A stretch of 64,000 nucleotides of DNA from Eledone cirrhosa (taxonomy: Eukaryota), in NCBI GenBank assembly GCA_964016885.1, contig OZ024759.1, forward strand, positions 22,444,001 to 22,508,000. Direction: 5' to 3'. This document shows positions 32,470 through 64,000 of this stretch, piece after piece. The notes beneath the pieces were generated by a model that was given only the letters and a program-made list of their open reading frames with translations, searched no databases and had not been told where the DNA came from. Every line of letters starts with the position of its first letter. The first letter of the stretch is position 1. A program made the position numbers and the translations under genes.

Positions 32470-33090
32470 TTTCTCTGTGATAACAGAATGGGCCTGTCTT
32501 TTAACGTCCCTGATATACAATGGTAGCTGTCCCCACACACGGCAGCTGTTACATCAAAGGATGGGTCTGTTTTTTAACTTCCCTGATATACAGTATATTG
32601 TGGAAGCTGTCTCTCCAGTTACATCTAAGGATGGGCCTGTCTTTTAACGTCCCTTATATAGAGTATATTATGGCAACTGTACCTCCTTGCGGCCAAACGT
32701 TGTTTGTCTTTTAACGTCCCTGATATAAGGTTGGGTCTGTATGTCTCTCCATACGGCAGCTGTTGCTTCTAATAATAGGCTGGGTCTGTTTTTTAACGTC
32801 CCTTACATAGAGTTTATTGTGGTAGCTGTCCTTCACTCGGCAGCTGTTACATCTAAGGTTGTGTTTGTCTTTAACGTCCCTGATATTGAGTATATTTAGG
32901 TAGCTGCCCCTCGATACGGCCCACTGTCAAATCTAATATAAGGTTGGGCTTGTCTTTTAACAGTATATTGTGATAGCGATCCCTCCATACTGAGAGGTGT
33001 CACATCTGATATAAGGTGAGGTCTGCTGTCCCTCCATACGGCCCACATTTGCAGCTTATAAAAGGTTGACCTGTCTTTTAACATCCCAAG
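32470..33090 (-). repeat. Degenerate monomers of the 81-bp satellite, inverted relative to the main array
   Basis: GGG(C/T)CTGTCTTTTAACGTCCCTGATATACAGTATATTGTGG.AGCTGTC...GTTACATCTAAGGATGGG is the reverse complement of the 48.9-64 kb monomer. Further copies at 36508-36712. Confidence 0.85.
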
Positions 33091-35696
33091 AACATGTGTC
33101 AATCGCACACCCTTAAACCTGGAATCCATCAAGGTACGTATTAGTCACATCGATTTTTTTAATTATTCGTTGATAAAATGATATATGTAAACGGCATAAA
33201 TGGAAGTAATTCAGGTGTGAATATATTTTTCATTTCAAAATTGTTAATGCGTTGCTGGTCATGTGGTGATATATGTGTATTGTTACGGGGTGCACTTATG
33301 GTTGTCGATCGAAAACCGATGGTGACTGTCTTGTTCTTCAATTGTGGATCATTTGGTGATTGTACATATGTCAGTCTATACCTCCTCCCCCTCGAAAACT
33401 CAGTGCCCTGTCTGGCTTCTAAGACTTTCGCTGTGGCCAACGCTTGGTTAGAGGGCCAACGGCATGTACATAATGTCGACAAAAAAAAAGAAAACGGTTA
33501 AAAGAGACATGTCTAAGCTGTATAATCTTCTATGAGTATCGCTTGACTGTAAACATGTTTAAACCCTCTCGCGGGAGGGTAAACAAAGCGGTTTAAAGAC
33601 ATGTCTAACTTCCTTCTCCATCGTAGACATCGAACTTAGATAAACCACCACAATTAAACTCCCTAAACACTCCGTTGGCAGACATCGAAAACCCCGTCTT
33701 CATAGCACCACCAATGCGTTAATAATTGTCTTATGAAAAAAATATTTAAATCCAAAATTACTTCCCTTTGTTCATATTAATTTTTTTTTTAACAAAATCT
33801 TTCAAAAGTACCACTATTTAACTCACTAGAATTGCGGCCTTCGCATCGATGCAAGGCCCGTCCCTGACCACCGTGAAGAACTTTTTTTCGAAATTTCTTT
33901 TAATATGCTAATTTGGAAATTATACTAGAAGAAATTTCTCTTAATATGATATTTTTGAAGTTTCTAGATTCTTAAAACCCTTGAAGGTTATTAACATTCT
34001 TGGAAGACAGATAGATTCGAGCCTTTTTAACTTATATTTTAACCCTTGATACTTCTTACTACATTCTTGACTGAGATTCGAACCTTTGATACTTTCTTTA
34101 CATGGTTCAAGGTTCTTATTACATTCTTACCTAGATTTGAATCTTTGATACTTCAAGGTTCATTCTTGGAAGACAGTTTGATTCGATGCTTTCTTTACAT
34201 ACTTAAAGGTTCTTGATACTTGGAACCTTGATTGTTACTCCATTCTTGGCCGACTGTTGGATTCGAACCCTTAATGACACTTTTGGACGACTGTTACATT
34301 GGTAATACTGTCTATACATTTTTTTTTTGTCAAAATAAACTGAACACAATTCGTATATAATATGTAAACTTTATTCATTTTTGTCAAATAAACTGAACAC
34401 GATTCGTATAAGATGTTCGACATTTTTTACGGCAACACAGCATATGACCTCGAAGGCTGGACATCTGTAAAAGGAAATAAAAAGAACATTAAACTTTATA
34501 AAATTCTTCCAATTTTGTTCTTTTATTATATATACATTTAAAAAGAGGAAACCTTTTCCTACATCAAAGTTACGTAGATTAAAACCTAGGGTGTAATATT
34601 CACCATGACCTAAGACGACAGATCTCAAAAGGTTATTAATAATAACCAGAATTTACAACAATACACGAGGATATCATGAAGGGAACTAGAAATAATATTG
34701 TTGGATGGAAACTAAGAGTGTTGAAAAAAGAAACGAAAATTGTAAATGAAGTTTCTAACGAAAGAAACTAAGAGTATCAAAGAATGTAGCAAGAAGTATC
34801 TCATCCAACTGTCTTCCAAGAATGTAAAGAAAGTATCTAAGGTTCTAATCCAAGGTTTAAGGGGACAAGTGTGCGAGAAATCAAGATTCATTGGGTGAAT
34901 ATTTCTTCGAAAGCATGTATACAGTGTCGAGATGGCTTAATTTAGTTTCTTAGAAGAGGTAACACTATTTGTGTGTGTATTTAGTTTTAAATTTCAAAGA
35001 AAGCCACAGAAAATAAAATATGAACACAATAACCAAAGTGTGTATCTAATGAAATGTATGTTTTCTGAAGAGTAGAAAAAAAATCTATATGAAACTAGTG
35101 ATTTTGAAATGTCGAGAAAAATTCTATATGAAACGTATGTTTTCTGAAAAGTCGAAAAAGGAAATCTACATGAAATTGGTGTTTTGTGAAAGGTGTATAT
35201 CTAATAGAATGTATGTATATAGAAAACAATATCCAAAATGTGAGCGTTATTGACATAAAGTGTATATATTAGTCCTAGTATAGAGCAAAGAAAACATTAC
35301 ATACCTCTCTACATGAAAGTAATATCCAAAATGGTTCTCTTCCAAAGAACCGGAAGTTACTTGAAAAAAGTCACTTCAAAAAAAGAAGAGTTTAAAAAAG
35401 GGGAGATAATTCTAATAAAATTTTGAGCAAAAATCGATTGTTCGCGAGGTCCGGGACGCAGGTCAGACAAGTAGCCAGCCTGCGAAATAGTCCCAGCTGC
35501 ATAAACCACGAAGACCTCGTAACGATTCGAACTTCAGACACATAGAATGGTCACGCCATACATAGGTAGACGACAAAGTTAGAACCGCTACGCGCAAAGC
35601 TGCAATTCTACTAAGTAAAATTAGTATACTTATAGGTAAAATTTTAGTATTTTGTACATATATGCAGAACAATTATTATGGAGATAAATATATGTA
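32843..35696 (+). repeat. Modular element unit A (direct-repeat partner of unit B)
   Basis: Near-identical to 36508-40334. ORF offsets are 3625 bp (33159 vs 36784) and 4515 bp (34371 vs 38886) because of internal array expansions in B. Confidence 0.9.
35429..35601 (-). ncRNA. Candidate structured Pol III RNA, variant 2 (unit A copy)
   Basis: Near-identical to 39940-40122 with a 10-bp deletion; upstream TATAAG and a T5 end on the minus strand. Confidence 0.35.
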
Positions 35697-36505
35697 TTTC
35701 TCTCTATAAACCTCATTCTGTAGATCTTTCCTTAGAGACATACATATAAAACTATATACTCTCAACTAAGAAAAATATATAAACCTTCTTCTCTATACCT
35801 TTCCTTTTTTCTTCTAATAAACCTCTATACACAGCTACATTTTATTATCTTCTCTATTTCTTTCACACGTGTCCTCTTCTATGTAGAGAGAAACCTTTGT
35901 GAGAATCGAACTCACGATTGTAAAGTCCGACAACTTTACATAAATACTTTGCGCATTGATGTCCAATTATCTCGGCGCATGCGTACTTTAGTGAAAATTA
36001 AATGGCCGCATGAAGAACTTCATGTTTTACAACGTGAATTAAAAAAACGTTAAAAACTTGGATTTTACTAATTTTACGGAGGTAAACTAAAGCTTTATTT
36101 TATGTTGATCAGTTTTATTGAAACATTTTCTGTTTATTTCCCTCCATAATGTCAGAAATAATTATTTAAACATTAGTTTTGTTTAGCCACATCTTACATT
36201 CTAATGTAATACAACACCCTCCTCATAAATATTTCTTGCTCATACGAAATAGTGTATTTTGTTAATTATTATTTAAGCTTGTAAATAATATATTTCTATT
36301 TCCCTTCATGATATCCTCGTATTTTGTAATTAGAGGTTAACTGTTGATCCGTGTTAACTAGATCGATATCGCTTTAACTATTAACCTACAATCATTTATA
36401 TTCTTAGTTTCTTTCGTTAGAAACTTTATTTACATTTTTAGTTTCTTATTTTCCCACCAACAATATTATGTAGACGATAGTTTTGTTTAAGCTACTGCCA
36501 CATTT
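35696..36505 (+). repeat. Module X (also at 41571-42382 direct and ~45523-46333 inverted)
   Basis: TTTCTCTCTATAAACCTCATTCTGTAGATC...GCTACTGCCACATTTCTA is shared nearly base for base. Confidence 0.9.
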
Positions 36506-37480
36506 CTACTGTTACATCTAAGGTTGTGTTTGTCTTTTAACGTCCCTGATATTAGGTATATTAGTATATTTAGGTAGCTGCCCCTCGATACGGCCCACTG
36601 TCAAATCTAATATAAGGTTGGGCCTGTCTTTTAACAGTATATTGTGATAGCGATTCCTCCATACTGAGAGGTGTCACATCTTATAAAAGGTTGACCTGTC
36701 TTTTAACATCCCAAGAACATGTGTCAATCGCACACCCTTAAACCTGGAATCCATCAAGGTACGTATTAGTCACATCGATTTTTTTAATTATTCGTTGATA
36801 AAATGATATATGTAAACGGCATAAATGGAAGTAATCCAGGTGTGAATATATTTTTCATTTCAAAATTGTTAATGCGTTGCTGGTCATGTGGTGATATATG
36901 TGTATTGTTACGATGTGCACTTATGGTTGTCGATCGAAAACCGATGGTGACTGTCTTGTTCTTCAATTGTGGATCATTTGGTGATTGTACATATGTCAGT
37001 CTATACCTCCTCCCCCTCGAAAGCTCAGTGCCCTGTCTGGCTTCTAAGACTTTCGCTGTGGCCAACGCTGGGTTAGAGGGCCAAAGGCATGTACATAATG
37101 TCGACAAAAAAAAAAGAAAACGGTTAAAAGAGACATGTCTAAGCTGTATAATCTTCTATGAGTATCGCTTGACTGTAAACATGTTTAAACCCTCTCGCGG
37201 GAGGGTAAACAAAGCGGTTTAAAGACATGTCTAACTTCCTTCTCCATCGTAGACATCGAACTTAGATAAACCACCACAATTAAACTCCCTAAACACTCCG
37301 TTGGCAGACATCGAAAACCCCATCTTCATAGCACCACCAATGCGTTAATAATTGTCTTATGAAAAAAATATTTAAATCCAAAATTACTTCCCTTTGTTCC
37401 GTTTGCATATATTAATTTTTTTTTCAACAAAATCTTTCAAAAGTACGTATAAGTACCACTATCTAACTCAGTAGAATTGC

Positions 37481-37635
37481 GGCCTTCGCGGTGGCGTGCG
37501 AACTGCGTCTCGGACTACCAGTCTCCCTGGCTGGCGTTCTATTCGTGGTGGCGTGCGACTGCATCGGCCTGGGACTATTCTGGGCCGGCACATAGATGCA
37601 AGGCCCGTCCCTGACCACCGTGAAGCTTTTTTTTT
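37481..37635 (+). ncRNA. Candidate structured Pol III RNA, variant 1
   Basis: GC-rich island in AT-rich DNA. Terminal stem TTCGCGGTGG/CCACCGTGAA followed by GC and T9. Internal GGGAC-TATTCT-GGGCC...GGCCC-GTCCC hairpin. TATAAG 33 nt upstream. Confidence 0.45.
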
Positions 37636-37781
37636 GAAATTTTTTTAATATGCAAATTAGATAAAAAAAAAAAGAAGAAAAAAAATCTTTGACATAGTAA
37701 ATATATATATATATATGTTGACATAGTATATATATATATATATGTCGACATATATATATAGTGAGACTTGTCGAAGATTTA

Positions 37782-38070
37782 ATCTAATATGCTAATTTGG
37801 AAATTATATTAGAAGAAATTTATTTAAATATAATTTCTAATTTGCATATCTAATATGCTAATTTGGAAATTATATTAGAAGAAATTTCTTTTAATACAAT
37901 TTCTAATTTGCATATCTAATATGCTAATTTGGAAATTATATTAGAAGAAATTTCTTTTAATATAATTTCTAATTTGCATATCTAATATGCTAATTTGGAA
38001 ATTATATTAGAAGAAATTTCTTTTAATATAATTTCTAATTTGCATATTAGAAATTTTTTGTAATATGATA
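37782..38070. repeat. 66-bp tandem repeat (~4.3 copies), each unit an imperfect palindrome carrying octamer motifs
   Basis: Units start at 37782, 37848, 37914 and 37980. ATTTGCAT at 37840, 37906, 37972 and 38038; ATGCTAAT in each unit. Confidence 0.9.
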
Positions 38071-38124
38071 TTTTTGAAGTTTCTAGATTCTTAAAACCCT
38101 TGAAGGTTATTAACATTCTTGGAA

Positions 38125-38775
38125 GACAGTTAGATTCGAACCTTTTTAACTAAACTTAGAATCTTAGATTCTAACCCTTGATACTTCTTACTAGATTCTT
38201 GACTTAAATTCGAACCTTTGATACTTTCTTTACATGGTTCAAATTACATTCTAACCCTTGATACTTCTTACTACATTCTTGACTTAGATTCGAACCTTTG
38301 ATACTTTCTTTACATAGTTCAAGGTTCTTATTACATTCTAACCCCTGATACTTCTTACTACATTCTTGACTGAGATTCGAACCTTTGATACTTTCTTTAC
38401 ATGGTTCAAGGTTCTTATTACATTCTAACCCTTGATACTTCTTACTACATTCTTGACTTAGATTCGAACCTTTGATACTTTCTTTACATGGTTCAAGGTT
38501 CTTATTACATTCTAACCCTTGATACTTCTTACCACATTTTTGACTTACTTAGATTCGAACCTTTGATACTTTCTTTACATACTTCAAGGTTCTTATTACA
38601 TTCTTACCACATTTTTGACTTACTTAAATTCGAACCTTTGATACTTCAAGGTTCATTCTTGGAAGACAGTTTGATTCGAACTTTCGATGCTTTCTTTACA
38701 TACTTAAAGGTTCTTGATACTTGGAACCTTGATGGTGACTCCATTCTTGGACGACTGTTGGATTCGAACCCTTAA
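38125..38775. repeat. ~87-bp tandem repeat with repeated GATTCGAACC (B-box-like on minus strand)
   Basis: GATTCGAAC at 38133, 38287, 38374, 38461, 38552, ~38673 and 38761, plus AATTCGAAC variants. Confidence 0.85.
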
Positions 38776-39939
38776 TGACACTTTTGGACGACTGTTACAT
38801 TGGTAATACTGTCTATACATTATTATTTTTATTTTTTTGTCAAAATAAACGGAACACAATTCGTATAGTATATAATATGTAAACTTTATTCATTTTTGTC
38901 AAATAAACTGAACACGATTCGTATAAGATGTTCGACATTTTTTACGGCAACACAGCATATGACCTCGAAGGCTGGACATCTGTAAAAGGAAATAAAAAGA
39001 ACATTAAACTTTATTAAATTCTTCCAATTTTGTTCTTTTATTATATATACATTTAAAAAGAGGAAACCCTTTCCTACATTAAAGTTACGTAGATTAAAAC
39101 CTTGGGTGTAATATTCACCCTGACCTAAGACGACAGATCTCAAAAGGTTATTAGTAATAACCAGAATTTACAACAATACACGAGGATATCATGAACTAGA
39201 AATAATATTGTTGGATGGAAACTAAGAGTGTTGAAAAAAGAGACGAAAATTGTAAATGAAGTTTCTAACGAAAGAAACTAAGAGTATCAAAGAATGTAGC
39301 AAGAAGTATCTCATCCAACTGTCTTCCAAGAATGTAAAGAAAGTACCTAAGGTTCTAATCCAAGGTTTAAGGGGACACGTGTGCGAGAAATCAAGATTCA
39401 TTGGGTGAATATTTCTTCGAAAGCATGTATACAGTGTCGAGATGGCTTAATTTAGTTTCTTAGAAGAGGTAACACTATTTGTGTGTGTATTTAATTTTAA
39501 ATTTCAAAGAAAGCCACAGAAAATAAAATATGAACACAATAACCAAAGTGTGTATCTAATGAAATGTATGTTTTCTGAAGAGTAGAAACAAAATCTATAT
39601 GAAACTAGTGATTTTGAAATGTCGAGAAAAATTCTATATGAAACGTATGTTTTCTGAAAAGTCGAAAAAGGAAATCTACATGAAATTAGTGTTTTGTGAA
39701 AGGTGTATATCTAATAGAATGTATGTATATAGAAAACAATATCCAAAATGTGAGCGTTATTGACATAAAGTGTATATATTAGTCCTAGTATAGAGCAAAG
39801 CAAACATTACATACCTCTCTACATGAAAGTAATATCCAAAATGGTTCTCTTAGAAAGAACCGGAAGTTACTTGAAAAAAAGTCACTTCAAAAAAAGAAGA
39901 GTTTAAAAAAGGGGAAATAATTCTAATAAAATTTTAAGC

Positions 39940-40122
39940 AAAAATCGATTGTTCGCGAGGACCGGGACGCAGGTCAGACAAGTAGCCAGCCTGCGAAATA
40001 GTCCCAGCTGCATAAACCACGAAGACCTCGTAACGATTCGAACTTCAGACGCATAGAATGGTCACGCCATACATAGGTAGACGACAAAGTCGGAACCGCT
40101 ACGCGCATCGCCGCGCAAAGCT
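39940..40122 (-). ncRNA. Candidate structured Pol III RNA, variant 2 (unit B copy)
   Basis: Minus strand: TATAAG at -33, AGTAGAATTGC, terminal stem TTTGCGCGG/CCTCGCGAA, internal GTTCGAATC, GGGAC-TATTTC-GCAGG...CCTGC-GTCCC hairpin, T5. Confidence 0.4.
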
Positions 40123-40649
40123 GCAATTCTACTAAGTAGAATTAGTATACTTATAGGTAAAATTTTATTCATTTTTTAAAAAAAAATATAGAAACGGAAA
40201 GGGAGGTAACACGTCTCAAAATATATTTAGTGTGTTATCTCACTCTTATTCCGTTTCTATATTTAAATTAATTTAGAATCTACTAGTATTTTGTACATAT
40301 ATGCAGAACAATTATTATGGAGATAAATATATGTGTGGGTTGTCTTATATATATACATAAGACAATTATTAACGCATTAATAATTGTCTTATGTATATAC
40401 ATAAGACAATTATTGGTGGTGTTGTGAAGATGGGGTTGTTGTACATATATACACAACAATTGTTATGGAGATAAATATAAGTTATGAAGGTAAGTTTGAG
40501 GATAGCCTCAGAAGGATGGAAGAAGTCCTTGACAAAGTCGACCAGGGTCTCAACATTCTGCTGCTGTGAGACTTTTAACCTACCTATGGCCACCTCCTCC
40601 CTGGAATGACATCACTCGAACAGAGACAGATGGAGTCCATACTGGCCCT

Positions 40650-40800: not shown

Positions 40801-43393
40801 AGAGAGTCACATTTTCAATATGATTACAATACAAACCATGTGCCAGAACAACAGACAAAAATCTTATTCCCAGATCTCAAAACAGTTAAATGCACAACAG
40901 AAAAAACAATAAGGAACCCTATCTGAAATAGGCACTACTTGAAATTGAAATGACACTCAAACTTTTCCATGAGAAGGATGGGAGAAGCCATAGAAAATAT
41001 TAAAACAAACCTTTAAATTTGCAAAAGAAACTGCCTTGGTACACTGTAAGATTGGGCCACTCTTCCATAAAAATGGTTCATTCTTTTTATTGATAACGTA
41101 TGTAAATGACTCATTTCCTTTTACAGATGTCCAGCCTTCAAGGTCATATGCTGTGTTATTTGTCGTAACAAGTGAGAATGGCGAAGTTTCTGTAAATAAA
41201 AAAGGTTACATTTTATATACAAATCATGTTCAGTTTATTTTGACAAAAATGAATAAAGAAGTCAAGTAGAGGTTTAACAGTTGCCTCAAAAGGTAGATGG
41301 CCTCCGTAGTACTTTTACCTGTCACAAATCCAAACTATAGAGGTATGTAATGTTTTCTTTGCTCTATACACATACATTTTATTAGATGCATACTTTATGT
41401 CAACAACTCTCACACTTTGGATCTTGTGTTCATGTGGCTTTCTGGCACATCGCCACTCACTCAACATGCTTTCTTTGAAATTAAAACATAATACACATAC
41501 AAATAGTGTTACCCCTTCTAAGAAACTAAACTAAACCATCTCGACACTATATACATACTTTCTAACTCAAATTTCTCTCTATAAACCTCATTCTGTAGAT
41601 CTTTCTTTAGAGACATACATATAAAACTATATACTCTCAACTAAGAAAAATATATAAACCTTCTTCTCTATACCTTTCCTTTTTTCTTCTAATAAACCTC
41701 TATACACAGCTACATTTTATTATCTTCTCTATTTCTTTCACACGTGTCCTCTTCTATGTAGAGAGAAACCTTTGTGAGAATCGAACTCACGATTGTAAAG
41801 TCCGACAACTTTACATAAATACTTTGCGCATTGATGTCCAATTATTTCGGCGCATGCGTACTTTAATGAAAATTAAATGGCCGCATGAAGAACTACATGT
41901 TTTACAACGTGAATTAAAAAAACGTTAAAAACTTGGATTTTACTAATTTTACGGAGGTAAACTAAAGCTTTATTTTATGTTGATCAGTTTTATTGAAACA
42001 TTTTCTGTTTATTTCCCTCCATAATGTCAGAAATAATTATTTAAACATTAGTTTTGTTTAGCCACATCTACATTCTAATGTAATACAACACCCTCCTCAT
42101 ACATATTTCTTGCTCATACGAAATAGTGTATTTTGTTAATTATTATTTAAGCTTGTAAATAATATATTTCTATTTCCCTTCATGATATCCTCGTATTTTG
42201 TAATCAGAGGTTAACTGTTGATCCGTGTTAACTAGATCGATATCGCTTTAACTTTTAACCTACAATCATTTATATTCTTAGTTTCTTTCGTTAGAAACTT
42301 TATTTACATTTTCAGTTTCTTATTTTCCCACCAACAATATTATGTAGACGATAGTTTTGTTTAAGCTACTGCCACATTTCTAGGTCATATGAAATAGAAT
42401 TTAGCTTATTTTCTATATTATTTAAATAATATATTTCTAGTTCCCTTCATGATATCCTCGTGTTTTGTTGTAAATTCGTTTTGGAGGACTTGCTCCTGTC
42501 ACACATGATGTTGGTATATTCTGGTTATTAATATTAACCAGAATCTTTTGAGATTGTTGTCTTTGGTCAGGGTGAATATTACACCCGTCACGTTTTGGCC
42601 ATAAAACTTAAGTTTTGTACCCATTTTTTTTTTTTTAGATATCATGATCGTAATCAAAGATTAACTGTTGATTAATTTAGATATCATGATCGTAATCAAA
42701 GATTAACTGTCGGTCAGTGTTAACTAGATCGATATCACTTTAACCCTTTACATTCTTAGTTTCTTCTCACGAAACTTTATTTACGTTCTTTGTTCCTTTT
42801 CAACACTTCATTTACATTCTTAGTTTCTTTTCTCGTCATTGAAGACAACTAAGAATGTAGATGAAGTTTCTAAAGAAAGAAATTTAGTTGTGTTTTTTTT
42901 TTTTAGACATCATCATCGTAATCAGATCGATATTATTAACCAGATCGATACCGCTTTAACTTTTAATCTACGTAACAAGTAACCGTTTACAATCCTCTTT
43001 ATGCATTTTATGTACATTCCTAGTTTCTTTCTTTATACACTTCATCTACCTTCTTATTTCCTTTCTTTAAGAAACTTCATATAGATTCTTAGTTTCCTCT
43101 ATTTAAATGATTTTTATAATAAAAGACAAAATTGAATGAATTTTATAAAGTTTAACATTCTTTTTATTGACAACGTCTGTAAATGACTTTTATTTCTTTT
43201 ACAGATGTCCAATCATCGAGGTCATATGCTGTGTTGTTTGCCGTAACAAGTAGGAATGTCGTAGTTTTTGTTAATAAAGAAAGTTTACATCTTATATACG
43301 AATTGTGTTCAGTTTATTTTGCCAAAGATGAATAAAGAAATCAAGAGTCTACAAGAAACTGAGTAAGACGCGCTATAAAGAACGTAAGTGTAT

Positions 43394-43672
43394 ATGAAGT
43401 TTCTAAATAAAGAAACTAAGAGGTAGATAAAGTTTCTTGAAAGAAACTAAGAATGATGAAGTTTCTAAATAAAGAAACTAAGAGGTAGATAAAGTTTCTT
43501 GAAAGAAACTGAGAATGATAAATTTTTTAAATAAAGAAACTAAGGGGTAGATAAAGTTTCTTGAAAGAAACTAAGAATGATGAAGTTTCTAAATAAAGAA
43601 ACTAAGAGGTAGATAAAGTTTCTTGAAAGAAACTAAGAATGATAAATTTTTTAAATAAAGAAACTAAGAATG
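43394..43672. repeat. 62-bp tandem repeat (~4.5 copies; mirror at ~44232-44512), each unit two ~31-bp AGTTTCT-N-AGAAACT subunits
   Basis: Unit registers at 43396, 43458, 43520, 43582 and 43644. Confidence 0.9.
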
Positions 43673-43771
43673 TTTTTGAAATTGTCGAAAAATAGATCTA
43701 TGAAACGTACCCTCTTTTTTTAATTTTTTTTTTTTATTAAAGGGAGGTAACTCTGTAATATTTTTGAGAGA

Positions 43772-44133
43772 ACACCTTCGTCACCGTCGTTACCACCGTC
43801 GGCACCTTCGTAACCGTCGTCACCATTACCGCCGCCACCTGGTGGCGGAGGTAAAGATACCGACGACGACGAAGTTGCACCGTCGTCTTCGTCGGTACCT
43901 TTGCCGCCGCCACCTGGTGGCGGAGGTAAAGGTACCGACGACGACGAAGTTGCACCGTCGTCTTCGTCGGTGTCTTTTCCTCCGCCACCAGGTGGCGGCG
44001 GCAAAGGTACCGACGAAGACGACGGTGCAACTTCGTCGTCGTCGGTATCTTTACCTCCGCCACCAGGTGGCGGCGGTAATGGTGACGACGGTTACGAAGG
44101 TGCCGACGGTGGTAACGACGGTGACGAAGGTGT
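43772..44133. other. CpG/GC-rich nested-hairpin core of the palindrome
   Basis: 9-bp ACCGTCGT-type repeats flank 75-bp units containing CCGCCACC-T-GGTGGCGG and ACCGACGACGACGAAGTTGCACCGTCGTCTTCGTCGGT hairpins. Confidence 0.9.
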
Positions 44134-46829
44134 TCTCTCAAAAATATTACAGAGTTACCTCCCTTTAATAAAAAAAAAAATTAAAAAAAGAGGGTACGTT
44201 TCATAGATCTATTTTTCGACAATTTCAAAAACATTCTTAGTTTCTTTATTTAGAAACTTCATCATTCTCAGTTTCTTTCAAGAAACTTTATCTACCCCTT
44301 AGTTTCTTTATTTAGAAACTTCATCATTCTTAGTTTCTTTCAAGAAACTTTATCTACCCCTTAGTTTCTTTATTTAGAAACTTCATCATTCTTAGTTTCT
44401 TTCAAGAAACTTTATCTACCCCTTAGTTTCTTTATTTAGAAACTTCATCATTCTTAGTTTCTTTCAAGAAACTTTATCTACCTCTTAGTTTCTTTATTTA
44501 GAAACTTCATATACACTTACGTTCTTTATAGCGCGTCTTACTCAGTTTCTTGTAGACTCTTGATTTCTTTATTCATCTTTGGCAAAATAAACTGAACACA
44601 ATTCGTATATAAGATGTAAACTTTCTTTATTAACAAAAACTACGACATTCCTACTTGTTACGGCAAACAACACAGCATATGACCTCGATGATTGGACATC
44701 TGTAAAAGAAATAAAAGTCATTTACAGACGTTGTCAATAAAAAGAATGTTAAACTTTATAAAATTCATCCAATTTTGTCTTTTATTATAAAAATCATTTA
44801 AATAGAGGAAACTAAGAATCTATATGAAGTTTCTTAAAGAAAGGAAATAAGAAGGTAGATGAAGTGTATAAAGAAAGAAACTAGGAATGTACATACAATT
44901 CATAAAGAGGATTGTAAACGGTTACTTGTTACGTAAATTAAAAGTTAAAGCGGTATCGATCTGGTTAATAATATCGATCTGATTACGATGATGATGTCTA
45001 AAAAAAAAAAACACAACTAAATTTCTTTCTTTAGAAACTTCATCTACATTCTTAGTTGTCTTCAATGACGAGAAAAGAAACTAAGAATGTAAATGAAGTG
45101 TTGAAAAGGAACAAAGAACGTAAATAAAGTTTCGTGAGAAGAAACTAAGAATGTAAAGGGTTAAAGTGATATCGATCTAGTTAACACTGACCGACAGTTA
45201 ATCTTTGATTACGATCATGATATCTAAATTAATCAACAGTTAATCTTTGATTACGATCATGATATCTAAAAAAAAAAAAATGGGTACAAAACTTAAGTTT
45301 TATGGCCAAAACGTGACGGGTGTAATATTCACCCTGACCAAAGACAACAATCTCAAAAGATTCTGGTTAATATTAATAACCAGAATATACCAACATCATG
45401 TGTGACAGGAGCAAGTCCTCCAAAACGAATTTACAACAAAACACGAGGATATCATGAAGGGAACTAGAAATATATTATTTAAATAATATAGAAAATAAGC
45501 TAAATTCTATTTCATATGACCTAGAAATGTGGCAGTAGCTTAAACAAAACTATCGTCTACATAATATTGTTGGTGGGAAAATAAGAAACTGAAAATGTAA
45601 ATAAAGTTTCTAACGAAAGAAACTAAGAATATAAATGATTGTAGGTTAAAAGTTAAAGCGATATCGATCTAGTTAACACGGATCAACAGTTAACCTCTGA
45701 TTACAAAATACGAGGATATCATGAAGGGAAATAGAAATATATTATTTACAAGCTTAAATAATAATTAACAAAATACACTATTTCGTATGAGCAAGAAATA
45801 TGTATGAGGAGGGTGTTGTATTACATTAGAATGTAAGATGTGGCTAAACTAAACTAATGTTTAAATAATTATTTCTGACATTATGGAGGGAAATAAACAG
45901 AAAGTGTTTCAATAAAATTGATCAACATAAAATAAAGCTTTAGTTTACCTCCGTAAAATTAGTAAAATCCAAGTTTTTAACGTTTTTTTAATTCACGTTG
46001 TAAAACATGTAGTTCTTCATGCGACCATTTAATTTTCACTAAAGTACGCATGCGCCGAAATAATTGGACATCAATGCGCAAAGTATTTATGTAAAGTTGT
46101 CGGACTTTACAATCGTGAGTTCGATTCTCACAAAGGTTTCTCTCTACATAGAAGAGGACACGTGTGAAAGAAATAGAGAAAATAATAAAATGTAGCTGTG
46201 TATAGAGGTTTATTAGAAGAAAAAAGGAAAGGTATAGAGAAGAAGGTTTATATATTTTTCTTAGTTGAGAGTATATAGTTTTATATGTATGTCTCTAAAG
46301 AGAGATCTACAGAATGAGGTTTATAGAGAGAAATTTGAGTTAGAAAGTATGTATATAGTGTCGAGATGGTTTAGTTTAGTTTCTTAGAAGGGCTAACACT
46401 ATTTGTATGTGTATTATGTTTTAATTTCAAAGAAAGCATGTTGAGTGAGTGACGATGTGCCAGAAAGCCACATGAACACAAGATCCAAAGTGTGAGAGTT
46501 GTTGACATAAAGTATGCATCTAATAACATGTATGTGTATAGAGCAAAGAAAACATTATATACCTCTATAGTTTGGATTTGTGACAGGTAAAAGTACTACG
46601 GAGGCCATCTACCTTTTGAAGCAACTGGTAAACCTCTACTTGATTTCTTTATTCATTTTTGTCAAAATAAACTGAACATGATTTGTATATAAAATGTAAC
46701 CTTTTTTTATTTACAGAAACTTCGCCGTTCCCACGTGTTACGACAAATAACACCGCATATGACCTTGAAGGCTGGACATCTGTAAAAGGAAATGAATGTC
46801 ATTTACATACGTTATCAATAAAAAGAATA

Positions 46830-48190
46830 TTAAACTGTATTAAATTCTTTCTATTTTGTCTTTTATTACATATAGATTTAAATAGAGGAAACAAGAAAAC
46901 CTTTCCTACATCGAAGGAGGTAACTAAACTAAGAATGTAAATGAAGTGTTGAAAACGAACAAAGAAAGTAAATGAAGTTTCGTAAGAAGAATCTAAATGG
47001 TTCTATGCTACCTAGGTTAAAATGATATCGATCTAGTTAATACTGACCAACAGTTAATCTTTGATTATGATGATGATGATGATATCTAAAAAAAAAAATT
47101 TCGTTCAAAACTAGACAGGTATAATATTGACTATGATCAAAGATGACAGATCCAAAAGATTCTGGTTAATATTAAGATGTGCCAGAAAGCCACATAAAAA
47201 TCCCTTCACATAAACACAATATCCAAAATGCATGTGAGGTTTATTGACATAAAATGTATGTGTATGGTTGTTCGCGAGGTCCGGGAACGCAGGCCAGCAA
47301 GTAGCCATCCTGCAAACAGTCCCAGCTGCATAAGCCACGAAGACCTCGTAACGATTCGAACTTCAGACACATAGAATGGCCACGCCATGCATAAGTAGAC
47401 GACGAAGTCCGAACCGCTGCTTTTAGGTAAAACTTTATTCATTAAAATATATATATATATATAGAAATGGAGAGGAAAGTAACACGTCTCAAAATAGATT
47501 TCGTGTGTTATCTCACATTCCGTTTCTATATTTAAATTAATTTAGAATCTACTAGTATTTTGTACATATATGCAGAACAATTGCAGAACAAGGCGGTGGA
47601 TTGGCAGTATCGATAGAGGGTCGGACGCCATGCTTTGCAGCACAGTTAGTCCCTTTACGGACTGAGTTCAAATCCCGCCGAGGTTAACTTTGCCTTTCAT
47701 CCTTACGGGGTCGATAAAATAAAGTACCAGTAATACACTGGAGTAATTGCTGGCCTTGTGCCAAATGTAGAAACAATTATTATGGAGATAAATATATGTA
47801 CACATATGTGTGGGTGTATATACGTTAATAATTGTCTTATGTATAAGACAAATATTAACGCATTGGTGGTGTTGTGAAGATGGGGTTGTTGTACATATAT
47901 ACACAACAATTGTTATGGAGATAAATATATGTGTGGGTGTATATGTATATATGCCGAGGAGAGAGAAGAAGGGGGAGCACGTCAGCTCTGATAGAGAAGA
48001 TCAGAAGTGTGGAGAGAGCGGTTGATAGGTCTAAGTGACACACTGATAGTACATATGAAGCAACTGTAAATGGCAATATGTGTCACATATCGGCCACCCG
48101 ACGCACCTAGTTATGAAGGTAAGTTTGAGGATAGCCTCAGAAGGATGGAAGAAGTCCTTGACAAAGTCGACCAGGGTCTCAACATTCTGC
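46830..48190 (+). repeat. Third, more diverged and partial copy of element modules (including truncated candidate RNA at 47268-47420)
   Basis: Matches 34500-34640, 39950-40100, 40155-40330 and 40400-40560 with more substitutions. Confidence 0.8.
47592..47778 (+). mobile_element. tRNA-derived Meta-domain-type SINE
   Basis: GGCGGTGGATTGGCAG...GAGTTCAAATCCCGCCGAGGTTAACTTTGCCTTTCATCC..CGGGGTCGATAAAATAAAGTACCAG. Confidence 0.85.
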
Positions 48191-48883: not shown

Positions 48884-51800
48884 AGCTACGACATATATAT
48901 TCTATATTAAAAGACAGACCCACTCTCAGATGTAACTGTGGGCTATATGGTATGACAGCTACCACAATATACTGTATATAAAGGATGTTAAAAGACAGAC
49001 CTATCCTCAGATGTAACTGTGGGCTATATGGTATGACAGCTACCACAATATACTGTATATAAAGGATGTTAAAAGACAGACCCACCCTCAGATGTAACTC
49101 TGGGCTATATGGTATGACAGCTACCACAATATACTGTATATAAAGGATATTAAAAGACAGACCCACTCTCAGATGTAACTGTGGGCTATATGGTATGACA
49201 GCTACCACAATATACTGTATATAAAGGATGTTAAAAGACAGACCTATCCTCAGATGTAACTGTGGGCTATATGGTATGACAGCTACCACAATATACTGTA
49301 TATAAAGGATGTTAAAAGACAGACCCACCCTCAGATGTAACTCTGGGCTATATGGTATGACAGCTACCACAATATACTGTATAAAAAGGATGTTAAAAGA
49401 CAGACCCATCCTCAGATGTAACTGTGGGCTATATGGTATGACAGCTACCACAATATACTGTATATAAAGGATGTTAAAAGACAGACCCACCCTCAGATGT
49501 AACTCTGGGCTATATGGTATGACAGCTACCACAATATACTGTATATAAAGGATGTTAAAAGACAGACCCATCCTCAGATGTAACTCTGGGCTATATGGTA
49601 TGACAGCTACCACAATATACTGTATATAAAGGATGTTAAAAGACAGACCCATCCTCAGATGTAACTGTGGGCTATATGGTATGACAGCTACCACAATATA
49701 CTGTATATAAAGGATGTTAAAAGACAGACCCACCCTCAGATGTAACTCTGGGCTATATGGTATGACAGCTACCACAATATACTGTATATAAAGGATGTTA
49801 AAAGACAGACCCATCCTCAGATGTAACTGTGGGCTATATGGTATGACAGCTACCACAATATACTGTATATAAAGGATGTTAAAAGACAGACCCATCCTCA
49901 AATGTAACTGTGGGCTATATAGTATGACAGCTACCGCAATATACTGTATATAAAGGATGTTAAAAGACAGACCCATTCTCAAATGTAACTGTGGGCTATA
50001 TGGTATGACAGCTACCACAATATACTGTATATAAAGGATGTTAAAAGACAGACCCATCCTCAGATGTAACTGTGGGCTATATGGTATGACAGCTACCACA
50101 ATATACTGTATATAAAGTATGTTAAAAGACAGACCCATCCTCAGATGTAACTGTGGGCTATATGGTATGACAGCTACCACAGATGTAACTGTGGGCTATA
50201 TGGTATGACAGCTACCACAATATACTGTATATAAAGGATGTTAAAAGACAGACCCATCCTCAGATGTAACTGTGGGCTATATGGTATGACAGCTACCACA
50301 ATATACTGTATATAAAGGATGTTTAAAGACAGACCCACCCTCAGATGTAACTGTGGGTTATATGGTATGACAGCTACCACAGATGTAAGTGTGGTCTATA
50401 TGGTATGACAGCTACCACAATATACTGTATATAAAGGATGTTAAAAGACAGACCCATCCTCAGATGTAACTGTGGGCTATATGGTATGACAGCTACCACA
50501 ATATACTGTATATAAAGTATGTTAAAAGACAGACCCATCCTCAGATGCAACTGTGGGCTATATGGTATGACAGCTACCACAGATGTAACTGTGGGCTATA
50601 TGGTATGACAGCTACCACAATATACTGTATATAAAGGATGTTAAAAGACAGACCCATCCTCAGATGTAACTGTGGGCTATATGGTATGACAGCTACCACA
50701 ATATACTGTATATAAAGTATGTTAAAAGACAGACCCATCCTCAGATGTAACTGTGGGCTATATGGTATGACAGCTACCACAGTTGTAACTGTGGGCTATA
50801 TGGTATGACAGCTACCACAATATACTGTATATAAAGGATGTTAAAAGACAGACCCATCCTCAGATGTAACTGTGGGCTATATAGTATGACAGCTACCACA
50901 ATATACTGTATATAAAGGATGTTAAAAGACAGACCTATCCTCAGATGTAACTGTGGGCTATATGGTATGACAGCTACCACAATATACTGCATATAAAGGA
51001 TGTTAAAAGACAGACCCACCCTCAGATGTAACTGTGGGCTATATGGTATGACAGCTACCACAATATACTGTATATAAAGGATGTTAAAAGACAGACCCAC
51101 ACTCAGATGTAACTGTGGGCTATATGGTATGACAGCTACCACAATATACTGTATATAAAGGATGTTAAAAGACAGACCCACCCTCAGATGTAACTGTGGG
51201 CTATATGTTATGACAGCTACCATAGATGTAACTGTGGGCTATATGGTATGACAGCTACCACAATATACTGTATATAAAGGATGTTAAAAGACAGACCCAC
51301 CCTCAGATGTAACTGTGGGCTATAAGGTATGACAGCTACCACAATATACTGTATATAAAGGATGTTAAAAGACAGACCCACCCTCAGATGTAACTGTGGG
51401 CTATATGGTATGACAGCTACCACAATATACTGTATGTAAAGGATGTTAAAAGACAGACCCACCCTCAGATGTAACTGTGGGCTATAAGGTATGACAGCTA
51501 CCACAATATACTGTATATAAAGGATGTTAAAAGACAGACCCACCCTCAGATATAACTGTGGGCTATATGGTATGACAGCTACCACAATATACTGTATGTA
51601 AAGGATGTTAAAAAACAGACCCAGCCGCAGATGTAAGTGTGGGCTATATGGTATGAGAGCTACCACAATATACTGTATATAAAGGATGTTAAAAGACAGA
51701 CCCACCCTCAGATGTAACTGTGGGCAATATGGTATGACAGCTACCACAGATGTAACTGTGGGCTATATGGTATGACAGCTACCACAATATACTGTATATA

Positions 51801-54800
51801 AAGGATGTTAAAAGACAGACCCATCCTCAGATGTAACTGTGGGCTATATGGTATGACAGCTACCACAATATACTGTATATAAAGGATGTTAAAAGACAGA
51901 CCCATCCTCAGATGTAACTGTGGGTTATATGGTATGACAGCTACCACAATATACTGTATATAAAGTATGTTAAAAGACAGACCCATGCTCAGATGTAACT
52001 GTGGGCTATATGGTATGACACCTACCACAATATACTGTATATAAAGGATGTTAAAAGACAGACCCATCCTCAGATGTAACTGTGGGTTATATGGTATGAC
52101 AGCTACCACAATATACTGTATGTAAAGGATGTTAAAAGACAGACCCACCCTCAGATGTAACTGTGGGCTATATGGTATGACAGCTACCACAATATACTGT
52201 ATATAAAGGATGTTAAAAGACAGACCCATCCTCAAATGTAACTCTGGGCTATATGGTATGACAGCTACCACAATATACTGTATATAAAGGATGTTAAAAG
52301 ACACACCCATCCTCAGATGTAACTGTGGGCTATATGGTATGACAGCTACCACAATATACTGTATATAAAGGATGTTAAAAGACAGACCCATCCTCAGATG
52401 TAACTGTGGGCTATATGGTATGACAGCTACCACAATATACTGTATATAAAGGATGTTAAAAGACAGACCCATCCTCAGATGTAACTGTGAGCTATATGGT
52501 AGGACAGCTACCACAATATACTGTATATAAAGGATGTTAAAAGACAGACCCACCCTCAGATGTAACTGTGGGCTATATGGTATGACAGCTACCACAATAT
52601 ACTGTATATAAAAGATGTTAAAAGACAGACCCATTCTCAAATGTAACTGTGGGCTATATGGTATGACAGCTACCACAATATACTGTATATAAAGGATGTT
52701 AAAAGACAGACCCATTCTCAAATGTAACTGTGGGCTATATGGTATGACAGCTACCACAATATACTGTATATAAAGGATGTTAAAAGACAGACCCATCCTC
52801 AGATGTAACTGTGGGCTATATGGTATAACAGCTACCACAATATACTGTATATAAAGGATGTTAAAAGACAGACCCATTCTCAAATGTAACTGTGGGCTAT
52901 ATGGAATAACAGCTACCACAATATACTGTATATAAAGGATGTTAAAAGACAGACCCATCCTCAGATATAACTGTGGGCTATATGGTATGACAGCTACCAC
53001 AATATACTGTATATAAAGGATGTTAAAAGACAGACCCACCCTCAGATGTAACTGTGGGTTATATGGTATGACAGGTACCACAGATGTAAGTGTGGTCTAT
53101 ATGGTATGACAGCTACCAAAATATACTGTATATAAAGGATGTTAAAAGACAGACCCATCCTCAGATGTAAGTGTGGGCTATATGGTATGACAGCTACCAC
53201 AATATACTGAATATAAAGGATGTTAAAAGACAGGCCCACCCTCAGATGTAACTGTGGGCTATATGGTATGACAGCTACCACAATATACTGCATATAAAGG
53301 ATGTTAAAAGACAGACCCACCCTCAGATGTAACTGTGGGCTATATGGTATGACAGCTACCACAATATACTGTATATAAAGGATGTTAAAAGACAGACCCA
53401 CCCTCAGATGTAACTGTGGGCTATATGTTATGACAGCTACCATAGATGTAACTGTGGGCTATATGGTATGACAGCTACCACAATATACTGTATATAAAGG
53501 ATGTTAAAAGACAGACCCACCCTCAGATGTAACTGTGGGTTATATGGTATGACAGCTACCACAATATACTGTATATAAAGGATGTTAAAAGACAGACACA
53601 TCCTCAGATGTAACTGTGGGTTATATGGTATGACAGCTACCACAATATACTGTATATAAAGGATGTTAAAAGACAGACCCATTCTCAAATGTAACTGTGG
53701 GCTATATGGTATGACAGCTACCACAATATACTGTATATAAAGTATGTTAAAAGACAGACCCATCCTCAGATGTAACTGTGGGCTATATGGTATGACAGCT
53801 ACCACAGATGTAACTGTGGGCTATATGGTATGACAGCTACCACAATATACTGTATATAAAGGATGTTAAAAGACAGACCCATCCTCAGATGTAACTGTGG
53901 GCTATATGGTATGACAGTTACCACAATATACTGTATATAAAGGATGTTAAAAGACAGACCCATCCTCAGATGTAACTGTGGGCTATATGGTATGACAGCT
54001 ACCACAATATACTGTATATAAAGTATGTTAAAAGACAGACCCATCCTCAGATGTAACTGTGGGCTATATGGTATGACAGCTACCACAGATGTAACTGTGG
54101 GCTATATGGTATGACAGCTACCACAATATACTGTATATAAAGGATGTTAAAAGACAGACCCATCCTCAGATGTAACTGTGGGCTATATGGTATGACAGCT
54201 ACCACAATATACTGTATATAAAGGATGTTAAAAGACAGACCTATCCTCAGATGTAACTGTGGGCTATATGGTATGACAGCTACCACAATATACTGCATAT
54301 AAAGGATGTTAAAAGACAGACCCACCCTCAGATGTAACTGTGGGCTATATGGTATGACAGCTACCACAATATACTGTATATAAAGGATGTTAAAAGACAG
54401 ACCCACACTCAGATGTAACTGTGGGCTATATGGTATGACAGCTACCACAATATACTGTATATAAAGGATGTTAAAAGACAGACCCACCCTCAGATGTAAC
54501 TGTGGGCTATATGTTATGACAGCTACCATAGATGTAACTGTGGGCTATATGGTATGACAGCTACCACAATATACTGTATATAAAGGATGTTAAAAGACAG
54601 ACCCACCCTCAGATGTAACTGTGGGCTATAAGGTATGACAGCTACCACAATATACTGTATATAAAGGATGTTAAAAGACAGACCCACCCTCAGATGTAAC
54701 TGTGGGCTATATGGTATGACAGCTACCACAATATACTGTATGTAAAGGATGTTAAAAGACAGACCCACCCTCAGATGTAACTGTGGGCTATAAGGTATGA

Positions 54801-63800: not shown

Positions 63801-64000
63801 CCTATCCTCAGATGTAACTGTGGGCTATATGGTATGACAGCTACCACAATATACTGTATATAAAGGATGTTAAAAGACAGACCCATCCTCAGATGTAACT
63901 GTGGGCTATATGGTATGACAGCTACCACAGATGTAACTGTGGGCTATAAGGTATGACAGCTACCACAATAGACTGTATATAAAAGATGTTAAAAGACAGA
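48884..64000 (+). repeat. Satellite DNA: 81-bp monomer plus 38-bp deletion monomer, higher-order repeats; runs off the window end
   Basis: Consensus TTAAAAGACAGACCCA(T/C)CCTCAGATGTAACTGTGGGCTATATGGTATGACAGCTACCACAATATACTGTATATAAAGGATG. The 27-aa periodic minus-strand ORFs reflect the monomer length. Confidence 0.98.

What the first reader, a model, noticed from the sequence alone, without database searches (positions are those of the whole stretch)
43772..44133. Palindrome core is three copies of an imperfect hairpin unit arranged forward, forward, reverse (flip/flop-like)
Seen: a 75-bp unit (starts 43829 and 43904) contains the perfect 1-nt-loop hairpin CCGCCACC-T-GGTGGCGG and a bulged hairpin ACCGACGACGACGAAGTTGCACCGTCGTCTTCGTCGGT. 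A third unit follows in reverse orientation, so the only asymmetric part of the core is the middle bulged hairpin (~43926-43978). The core is CpG-dense within very AT-rich DNA and could fold as a multi-branched cruciform. Established: parvoviral and poxviral hairpin ends occur as flip and flop isomers. Inference: possible resolution/origin site or the fold-back priming point that generated the palindrome.
Basis: partly seen in the sequence, partly recalled or inferred. Interest (0 to 1): 0.7.

Follow-up and report, generated by a model that had tools for sequence, protein, structure and literature searches.

The report
Nested hairpin centre of giant palindrome
A GC-rich cluster of nested DNA hairpins sits at the exact centre of a 5.7-kb palindrome in apparently non-coding animal repeat DNA, and its old, mismatched middle hairpin likely primed the fold-back copying that made the palindrome; virus-like flip/flop ends remain untested.

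Summary
43772-44133 (61% GC, 52 CpG) is the centre of a 5.75-kb palindrome (41080-46828, 98.5%). It holds four short perfect palindromes (P) alternating with three 38-bp imperfect hairpins (D; forward, forward, reverse). The inner arms were probably homogenised afterwards. The arms belong to an AT-rich mosaic repeat family with no detectable coding. A ~60-bp end motif of this family occurs as four other inward-facing pairs 3.1-3.7 kb apart; its link to the core flanks is moderate (E about 0.01) and fails when two training copies are dropped. No second core exists in the window, and flip/flop isomers are neither shown nor excluded. Each P contains an exact CTCF core motif (lead only). Verdict: new variant of a hairpin-primed palindrome. 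There is about a 15% chance that it is the dimer junction of a non-coding, parvovirus-like hairpin-ended element.

The parts
41080..43952 (+). Left arm of the 5.75-kb palindrome; ends at 41080 against unrelated, LINE-like DNA (label recalled)
43953..46828 (-). Right arm; beyond 46828 it continues into further modules of the same repeat family up to about 47580, so it is the likely template copy (inference)
43927..43978 (.). Asymmetric 52-bp tip: D2 plus 7-bp flanks, 6 symmetric mismatches; proposed fold-back primer
43772..43828 (+). L: two diverged 27-30-bp copies of the D-arm sequence (9-bp periodic); mirrored at 44077-44133
43829..43851 (+). P1, 23-bp palindrome with perfect 17-bp centre (centre T); CTCF core motif on - strand
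43859..43896 (+). D1, imperfect hairpin, forward
43904..43926 (+). P2 (centre T); CTCF core motif on - strand
43934..43971 (+). D2, imperfect hairpin, forward, centred on the palindrome axis
43979..44001 (-).
44009..44046 (-). D3, mirror of D1
44054..44076 (-). P4 (centre A), mirror of P1; CTCF core motif on + strand
44077..44133 (-). Mirror of L
43739..43765 (+). Flank resembling the family end motif H, facing the core (moderate support)
   Evidence: E=0.024; weakened
44142..44166 (-). Mirror copy of that flank
   Evidence: E=0.0077
43394..43669 (+). 62-bp tandem array (4.5 copies) in the left arm; variants are distributed differently from the right-arm array
44236..44510 (-). 62-bp tandem array (4.4 copies) in the right arm
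35696..36508 (+). Third copy of arm segment 41571-42382, inserted with blunt junctions; outgroup for the arms
40170..40276 (.). Related junction: two inward-facing H motifs forming a ~80-nt hairpin with no GC core
   Evidence: z=-7.4
47443..47545 (.). Related junction of the same small-hairpin type, more decayed
   Evidence: z=-1.7, 13 of 200 shuffles as good
36791..37426 (.). Related junction: inward-facing H pair around a ~500-bp spacer unrelated to the core; folds as a long stem with a branched top
   Evidence: z=-5.6, 0 of 20
33166..33788 (.). Recent duplicate (1.1% substitutions) of the 36791-37426 junction

Best explanation
The core is an array of 38-bp half-units in alternating orientation centred on a 5.75-kb palindrome, and its middle, mismatched hairpin (43927-43978) likely acted as the fold-back primer that copied about 2.85 kb of the adjacent repeat element into an inverted arm. 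Step 1 (shown): the core is built from one 27-38-bp unit in alternating orientation, with divergence layered from old to young: outer half-unit against inner ones 8-11 of 38, tip arms 6 of 26, unit 1 against unit 2 4 of 75, palindrome arms 0-1.8%. Step 2 (inferred): a 3' end exposed at the middle hairpin folded back and was extended along its own strand. This could be a broken or stalled chromosomal strand, or the hairpin end of a linear copy of the element. Replication then opened the hairpin-capped molecule into a palindrome that keeps the primer's mismatches as its only asymmetry. Step 3 (inferred): the new left arm was joined to unrelated DNA at 41080, probably in the same burst that made the tandem duplication 32844-35695/36509-40334 and the 813-bp third copy, all 1-2.3% diverged. 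Step 4 (pattern shown, cause inferred): arm-to-arm repair or conversion later homogenised the inner arms. Step 5 (inferred, moderate): the core is the expanded hairpin end of a local family of apparently non-coding, AT-rich mosaic elements whose ends carry motif H and meet head to head. The GC-rich, mismatched centre may slow cruciform extrusion and so help the palindrome persist (established principle recalled; not tested).
For: Axis and the 6 mismatches. Layered divergence. Differences between the arms are concentrated outward: KS against uniform p=1e-4 for 26 events, p=0.002 for 20 events after dropping the outermost 130 bp, and an 899-bp run with no difference p=4e-4. The third copy differs from both arms at 4 sites where the arms are identical. 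Of 8 left/right differences in that segment, the third copy sides with the left arm at 6 and the right at 2, so the arm differences are real mutations. The right arm continues into family modules while the left stops against unrelated DNA. Mechanism in print: fold-back priming at pre-existing inverted repeats (PMC7999016, passages); junctions that preserve interrupted inverted repeats (PMC4689423, passages). H pairs: all 10 top hits of a profile built from 8 non-core copies lie in 5 inward-facing pairs, the core flanks being the best two non-training hits (E=0.0077 and 0.024; next 0.55), and 0 of 40 block-shuffled regions reached their scores (best 11.1 bits).
Against: No pre-palindrome allele could be examined. 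The H link is fragile: a single-sequence test was not significant (38 of 300 shuffles) and a joint test gave 6 of 200. The core flanks drop out of the hit list when the two left small-hairpin copies are left out of training, and score at best E=1.2-2.8 with 4-sequence profiles. The two core hits are mirror copies (one observation), and the five junctions are only three independent types. The third-copy test of homogenisation alone gives Fisher p=0.07. The junctions of the third copy have no microhomology, which is unusual for microhomology-driven template switching (recalled). The 7-bp right flank of D2 differs from the mirror of its own left flank at 3 sites, so the primed stem had to include wobble or mismatched pairs.
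Confidence: 0.6

Rival explanations
1. The core is the true telomere of a hairpin-ended, rolling-hairpin replicon (a parvovirus-like satellite without genes of its own). The palindrome is an integrated head-to-head dimer junction, the 52-bp tip exists as flip and flop isomers, and L and D are binding sites for a HUH nickase supplied in trans.
For: The tip size and form match densovirus telomeres: a 55-nt flip-flop palindrome in an I-shaped hairpin (PMC12297876, passages) and a 33-34-nt one (PMC11642819, passages). Units of 2.9-3.5 kb are bounded by hairpin-like junctions at both ends. The only three runs of 3 or more GAC in the 64-kb window are in D; a densovirus NS1 site made of GAC repeats is recalled but was not found in the library. 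One marker column is incompatible with three inner-arm markers, as a tip inversion would give.
Against: No NS1/Rep, helicase or capsid family in 186 frames; no homologues for three frames. The other junctions have unrelated or no tips, whereas telomeres of one replicon should be conserved. One substitution or conversion explains the marker conflict equally well. Only one tip orientation is present.
Confidence: 0.15
2. The family is a Helitron/Helentron-type non-autonomous mosaic (HINE-like) whose terminal hairpin was expanded into the core; the palindrome arose when rolling-circle copying turned back at that hairpin.
For: Shuffled modules and internal tandem repeats of 39, 62, 66 and 87 bp resemble HINEs that carry satellite-like arrays in a mollusc (PMC7492417, passages). 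The two small hairpins are followed by CTAG then T after 16-18 nt. P is a 17-nt GC-rich palindrome, the size given for Helitron 3' hairpins (PMC4067079, passages). No target-site duplication was found.
Against: No CTRR within 25 nt of P in 8 of 8 directions. The small hairpins are ~80 nt and AT-rich, not 16-20 nt. H copies at opposite ends of a unit share only 7-10 identical bases, under the 11-bp subTIR criterion. No RepHel coding.
Confidence: 0.12
3. The core works as a host insulator or boundary: four CTCF core motifs in a CpG-rich, probably unmethylated island, arranged divergently. This concerns function and is compatible with a fold-back origin.
For: The exact 11-bp core motif given in PMC10216408 (passage) occurs 4 times, strands - - + +, and nowhere else in the window (0.05 expected; 0 of 100 shuffles reach 4). 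CTCF motifs are reported at coleoid cephalopod boundaries and loop anchors (PMC13652810, passages).
Against: The four copies descend from one, and the divergent layout follows from the palindrome. The motif is itself a near-palindrome (PMC10094706, passage), and its half is the 4th commonest of 512 5-mer classes in 1-48,900, so fold-back of a common tract can create it. The motif was picked after seeing the sequence. Orientation does not matter in echinoderms (PMC13317027, passages). The organism is only inferred.
Confidence: 0.1
4. The whole 5.75 kb is one foldback transposon: long TIRs with internal tandem repeats and the core as middle domain.
For: Long inverted arms with tandem subrepeats and a non-coding middle match the foldback layout (PMC4079207, passages).
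Against: No 8-10-bp target-site duplication at 41080/46828 (best shared word 6 bp). The right arm runs on into more family sequence instead of ending. There is no true spacer: the middle is itself palindromic.
Confidence: 0.05
5. The palindrome is a read or assembly artefact (fold-back read, or collapsed polishing).
For: The inner arms are almost identical (0 substitutions in 253 bp, 4 in 1,323 bp). Spacer-less palindromes of this size are normally unstable (PMC7999016, passages). No reads were available.
Against: The arms differ mainly by substitutions (22 outside the array, 14 transitions) that a third copy polarises, and the 62-bp arrays carry different variant patterns on the two arms (10 substitutions in 279 bp).
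Confidence: 0.05
6. The core is a Pro/Gly/Asp/Ser-rich coding exon whose codons happen to be self-complementary.
For: The 75-bp unit is 25 codons and the core has open frames of 123-154 aa on both strands.
Against: No homologue for the Pro/Gly frame (193 candidates, none at E<=0.001). The Arg/His frame gave 2 hits in 1.84 billion proteins at 36-42% identity, probably from shared composition (not examined further). No Pfam family above cut-off. Frames on both strands follow from the palindrome.
Confidence: 0.03

Closest known systems
Fold-back-primed / ODIRA palindromic duplications (PMC7999016; PMC4689423; passages read)
   Same: Large near-perfect palindrome whose junction preserves a pre-existing short interrupted inverted repeat; nearby duplication with a third, inverted copy.
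   Different: The primer here is a 52-bp hairpin inside a nested array of hairpins rather than a 5-9-bp repeat with a spacer. The palindrome has persisted long enough to diverge 1.8% with no central deletion. The third-copy junctions are blunt.
Densovirus/parvovirus telomeres with flip-flop palindromes (BtaDV, PMC12297876; MpDV, PMC11642819; passages read)
   Same: Imperfect terminal-type hairpin with a ~50-nt asymmetric tip, short GC-rich reiterated motifs beside it, and inverted ends around a 3-3.5-kb body.
   Different: No NS1/Rep or VP coding detected. Only one tip orientation is seen. Tips differ between related junctions. The body is a 30%-GC mosaic of tandem repeats.
Helentron non-autonomous elements (HINE/DINE-1; oyster Cg_HINE) and canonical Helitrons (PMC4067079; PMC7492417; passages read)
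   Same: Non-coding, with hairpins at the ends, internal tandem repeats, adjacent satellite-like monomers and no target-site duplication found.
   Different: The terminal structures are several times larger. There are no 11-bp identical subTIRs at unit ends and no CTRR after the GC-rich hairpin.
Foldback transposons (Tetris, FB, Galileo; PMC4079207 passages read, the others seen in a search listing or recalled)
   Same: Long inverted arms with tandem subrepeats and a non-coding middle.
   Different: No target-site duplication, asymmetric outer boundaries, and a middle that is itself a palindrome.
Poxvirus/ASFV hairpin telomeres (recalled; no paper read)
   Same: Concatemer-junction-like palindrome flanked by tandem repeats in AT-rich DNA.
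   Different: Those hairpins are AT-rich with extrahelical bases. This tip is 52% GC with symmetric mismatches, and no viral genes were found nearby.

Membership tests
Fold-back-primed palindrome | Pre-existing imperfect inverted repeat exactly on the axis | tested here: met
Fold-back-primed palindrome | Arms younger (more alike) than the central repeat | tested here: met
   tip 6 of 26 against arms 0 of 253, 4 of 1323 and 18 of 991
Fold-back-primed palindrome | Unduplicated ancestral allele carrying the hairpin once | not testable with these tools
   no eukaryotic genome or read collection was available
Parvoviridae (telomere) | Imperfect terminal palindrome of 100-550 nt folding into a hairpin | tested here: met
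   362-bp core and 52-bp tip; range from PMC12297876
Parvoviridae (telomere) | NS1/Rep (HUH + SF3 helicase) and capsid genes between the termini | tested here: not met
   0 of 59 frames above a Pfam cut-off; 0 of 127 at E<=0.01. Caveat: a Tc1-like frame also missed its family, so decayed genes can escape.
Parvoviridae (telomere) | Tip present as flip and flop isomers | tested here: inconclusive
   one core, one orientation in the window; marker conflict equivocal; reads unavailable
Parvoviridae (telomere) | Genome length about 4-6 kb | tested here: not met
   inter-junction spacing 3.1-3.7 kb; range from PMC11357303
Parvoviridae (telomere) | Rep binding and nicking at the hairpin | not testable with these tools
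   GAC runs only in D; the densovirus motif is recalled and was not found
Poxvirus/ASFV hairpin telomere | AT-rich hairpin with extrahelical bases (recalled) | tested here: not met
   tip 52% GC, symmetric mismatches
Canonical Helitron | 16-20-nt palindrome about 11 nt before a 3' CTRR | tested here: not met
   P: no CTRR in 8 of 8 directions. Small hairpins: CTAG at 16-18 nt in 2 of 4 directions, but stems ~80 nt.
Helentron/HINE | At least 11-bp identical subterminal inverted repeats at the two ends | tested here: inconclusive
   7-10 bp between opposite ends of units; 13 bp between the core flank and the 40170 copy; true ends unknown
Helentron/HINE | Insertion in T-runs with no target-site change, shown by empty sites | not testable with these tools
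   no empty sites available
Foldback transposon | Long TIRs with internal tandem repeats and a non-coding middle | tested here: met
Foldback transposon | 8-10-bp target-site duplication at both ends | tested here: not met
   the right arm continues into family sequence
CTCF site cluster | Core motif present | tested here: met
   4 exact matches to the motif given in PMC10216408
CTCF site cluster | Occupancy by CTCF in vivo | not testable with these tools
   needs ChIP or CUT&Tag
Known structured RNA (Rfam) | Match at gathering score | tested here: not met
   0 matches in the whole window

The most novel reading that the evidence does not exclude
An animal genome carries a previously undescribed family of gene-less, ~3.5-kb linear elements with hairpin telomeres at both ends that copy themselves by rolling-hairpin replication, with a HUH nickase supplied in trans. 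This locus preserves an integrated head-to-head dimer junction with the complete telomere, its reiterated binding sites and one of two flip/flop isomers, beside four collapsed or divergent junctions: a parvovirus-style satellite that lives as a genomic repeat.
Probability: 0.15. Interest if true: 0.85.

Novelty: new variant of a known kind. Interest (0 to 1): 0.5.

Why it matters
Spacer-less kilobase palindromes are normally fragile. This one has survived to 1.8% arm divergence with only six central mismatches, and it records its own history in layers: an old hairpin, a younger fold-back, and later centre-outward homogenisation. It is a natural test case for how a GC-rich, nested centre might stabilise a palindrome, and for fold-back priming in a germline. 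If the flanking motif really marks hairpin-ended elements, it points to an unclassified repeat family. If both tip orientations are found in reads or paralogues, that would be evidence of parvovirus-style terminal resolution acting on a gene-less genomic repeat.

Tried and rejected
Second core in the window: none by mismatch search or by a profile of the half-units. Prokaryotic origin or contamination: no match for the core or the right unit in 50,697 phage records; one low-complexity 65-bp match in 72,556 plasmids (not opened); no exact match of a 32-base core pattern in GTDB genomes. Coding: Pfam on 59 + 127 frames gave nothing above cut-off. Frames lying wholly in 44300-46500 were left out as mirror images, and frames under 33 aa were not scanned. 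The scan also missed a Tc1-like frame, so it is weak against decayed genes. Protein searches were negative for 41611-41925, the Pro/Gly core frame and 36788-37219. The Arg/His core frame gave two 36-42% hits that were not examined. Atlas hits reached only 0.82, chance level. Rfam: 0. Target-site duplications: none of 8 bp or more at 5 candidate boundary pairs. The H link failed as a single-sequence test and in a leave-out test. The binomial test used a miscount (29 events, p=2e-6); the corrected count is 26, p=2e-5, and boundary-free tests are. Literature: ten keyword searches listed no description of this element family. They were keyword-only and the species is unknown, so this is weak evidence of novelty. 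The recalled densovirus GAC-repeat binding site could not be confirmed. Unchecked: viral and metagenome contig collections, any eukaryotic genome or read set (so paralogous cores elsewhere, other haplotypes and animal DNA viruses were not examined at DNA level), and paper supplements (none opened).

Full report
Context. The window is animal genomic DNA: dinucleotide microsatellites, minisatellites, an 81-bp satellite from 48.9 kb to the end, and decayed retroelement and Tc1-like frames (element labels recalled from motifs). Its repeat style looks cephalopod-like; this is recalled and untested. A self-comparison shows one large inverted repeat, 41080-46828, 98.5% identical, centred on the finding.

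Observation. The axis is 43952|43953. The only asymmetry is six mismatched pairs in 43927-43978, followed by 202 bp of perfect arms. The order is L, P1, D1, P2, D2, P3, D3, P4, L'. The P centres read T, T, A, A and the D hairpins forward, forward, reverse. L is two diverged copies of the D arm, so the whole core is one 27-38-bp unit repeated in alternating orientation, with seven local symmetry centres about 37.5 bp apart. The core is 61% GC, CpG o/e 1.54, against 27% GC in the flanks. It folds far beyond chance. A branched form is much less stable than the single long hairpin (-104.5 against -253.2 kcal/mol), so it could only be a kinetic intermediate.

Ages. The outer half-unit differs from the inner ones at 8-11 of 38 sites, the tip arms at 6 of 26 and the two forward units at 4 of 75. 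The palindrome arms differ at 18 of 991 (outer), 4 of 1,323 (middle) and 0 of 253 (inner) sites, plus 10 of 279 in the 62-bp array. The hairpin therefore predates the palindrome (inference from divergence). Arm differences are not uniform: KS p=1e-4, and an 899-bp difference-free run has p=4e-4 (the binomial used a miscount and is superseded). A third copy of 41571-42382 at 35696-36508 sides with the left arm at 6 and the right at 2 of 8 differences, and differs from both at 4 sites where the arms agree (Fisher p=0.07). This argues that the arms are biological and were homogenised from the centre after they formed. The neighbouring tandem duplication is 1.1-2.3% diverged and the third copy 1.0-1.6%, which is compatible with one burst of rearrangement. 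The third copy's junctions are blunt.

Flip/flop. Only one core and one tip orientation exist in the window. Among five informative columns of the half-units, the flank column at 43857/43898/43932/43973 is incompatible with three inner-arm markers. A past inversion of the inner tip would give this pattern, but so would one conversion across P2 or one repeat transition. The isomer claim is neither shown nor excluded.

The arms. 32.4-48.2 kb is a mosaic of shared AT-rich modules in both orientations. No coding was detected: 0 of 59 frames above a Pfam cut-off, 0 of 127 at E<=0.01, negative protein searches, two low-identity hits not examined and chance-level Atlas scores. The Pfam scan also missed a Tc1-like frame, so decayed genes cannot be excluded. 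Nothing matched phages or GTDB genomes, and the one plasmid match was low-complexity; Rfam gave 0. A ~60-bp motif, H, occurs in inward-facing pairs at 33166/33788, 36791/37426 (500-bp spacer, long stem), 40170/40276 and 47443/47545 (small hairpins). A profile of those eight copies picks the two core flanks as its best new hits (E=0.0077 and 0.024; next 0.55), and 0 of 40 shuffled regions score as high. The five junctions are 3.1-3.7 kb apart. Against this, the single-sequence test failed (38 of 300), the joint test was marginal (6 of 200), and the link disappears or falls to E>1 with reduced training sets. The junctions are three independent types, and part of the regular spacing comes from the tandem duplication. 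I put the homology at roughly 0.7 (judgement).

Mechanism. Most likely (0.6), a 3' end folded back on the mismatched middle hairpin and copied about 2.85 kb of the element on its right. The copy was opened into a palindrome, joined to unrelated DNA at 41080, and later homogenised from the centre. This is the fold-back priming route of PMC7999016 and gives the junction type of PMC4689423 (passages only). The rivals are an integrated dimer junction of a rolling-hairpin element (0.15), a Helitron/HINE-type mosaic (0.12), a foldback transposon (0.05), an artefact (0.05) and a coding exon (0.03). A CTCF-boundary role (0.1) is compatible with the best model. For the rolling-hairpin reading, the tip resembles the 55-nt flip-flop of BtaDV and the 33-34-nt one of MpDV (passages), and GAC runs occur only in D, but the Rep and capsid genes that define Parvoviridae were not found. 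For Helitrons, P has the right size but no CTRR follows it (0 of 8 directions), while the two small hairpins are followed by CTAG (definitions from passages). For foldbacks, no target-site duplication was found (passages). For CTCF, the exact core motif of PMC10216408 (passage) occurs four times, divergently, and nowhere else in the window. However, the copies descend from one, the motif is nearly palindromic (passage), and its half is among the commonest 5-mers here. CTCF motifs are reported at cephalopod boundaries (passages), but orientation is irrelevant in echinoderms (passages).

Works like versus member. The core works like the primer hairpin of a palindromic duplication and is shaped like a densovirus telomere. 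It is not filed as parvoviral, poxviral, Helitron or foldback, because a defining feature was tested and not met in each case; HINE membership is inconclusive.

Novelty and verdict. Ten keyword searches listed no description of this family; only listings and passages were seen, and no supplements. Eukaryotic genomes, reads, and viral and metagenome contigs stayed unchecked, which is where the decisive evidence lies. Verdict: real feature, new variant of a known kind, interest 0.5. The novel reading has probability 0.15 and would deserve 0.85 if true.

Noticed in passing
48904-64000; 32509-33080; 36562-36705: 81-bp satellite array of at least 15 kb on +, with decayed monomers on the - strand left of the H junctions, so the mosaic region is framed by the satellite in opposite orientations.
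   Followed up: partly
32844-35695 and 36509-40334, with 35696-36508 between: Tandem duplication (1.1-2.3% substitutions) with an 813-bp insertion copied from the palindrome arm 6 kb away; both junctions are blunt.
   Followed up: yes
35644|35645: In the first duplicate the ~120-bp small hairpin seen at 40164-40283 is cleanly deleted, with 2 bp of microhomology.
   Followed up: partly
40480-40561 and 48109-48190: An 82-bp LINE-like piece (label recalled) is 100% identical in two places whose flanks are only 68-78% alike, suggesting a recent templated copy.
   Followed up: no
40340-40409: AT-rich near-perfect 70-bp palindrome (z=-11.8), part of a module found 7 times, only between 33.6 and 48 kb.
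   Followed up: partly
37782-38047: Four 66-bp tandem repeats, each of which is itself an imperfect palindrome.
   Followed up: no
37130-37250: Small nested hairpin inside the 500-bp spacer (z=-4.8).
   Followed up: no
41611-41928 (also 35736-36053 and 45977-46294): 105-aa open frame after a pyrimidine tract, intact in all three copies; no homologue found.
   Followed up: yes
6724-7978 and 24770-26013: Two copies (93.7%) of a Tc1/mariner-like element with a broken transposase frame (label recalled; Pfam gave no family).
   Followed up: no
323-1440 and 3061-4249: Decayed reverse-transcriptase-like frames (Penelope-like and RTE-like by recall).
   Followed up: no
14499-16289 and 18660-23690: Long ACC/GGT-type minisatellites on opposite strands with extreme GC skew.
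   Followed up: no
28620-28800: Isolated decayed copies of the 31/62-bp repeat of the palindrome arms, 4 kb left of the mosaic region.
   Followed up: no
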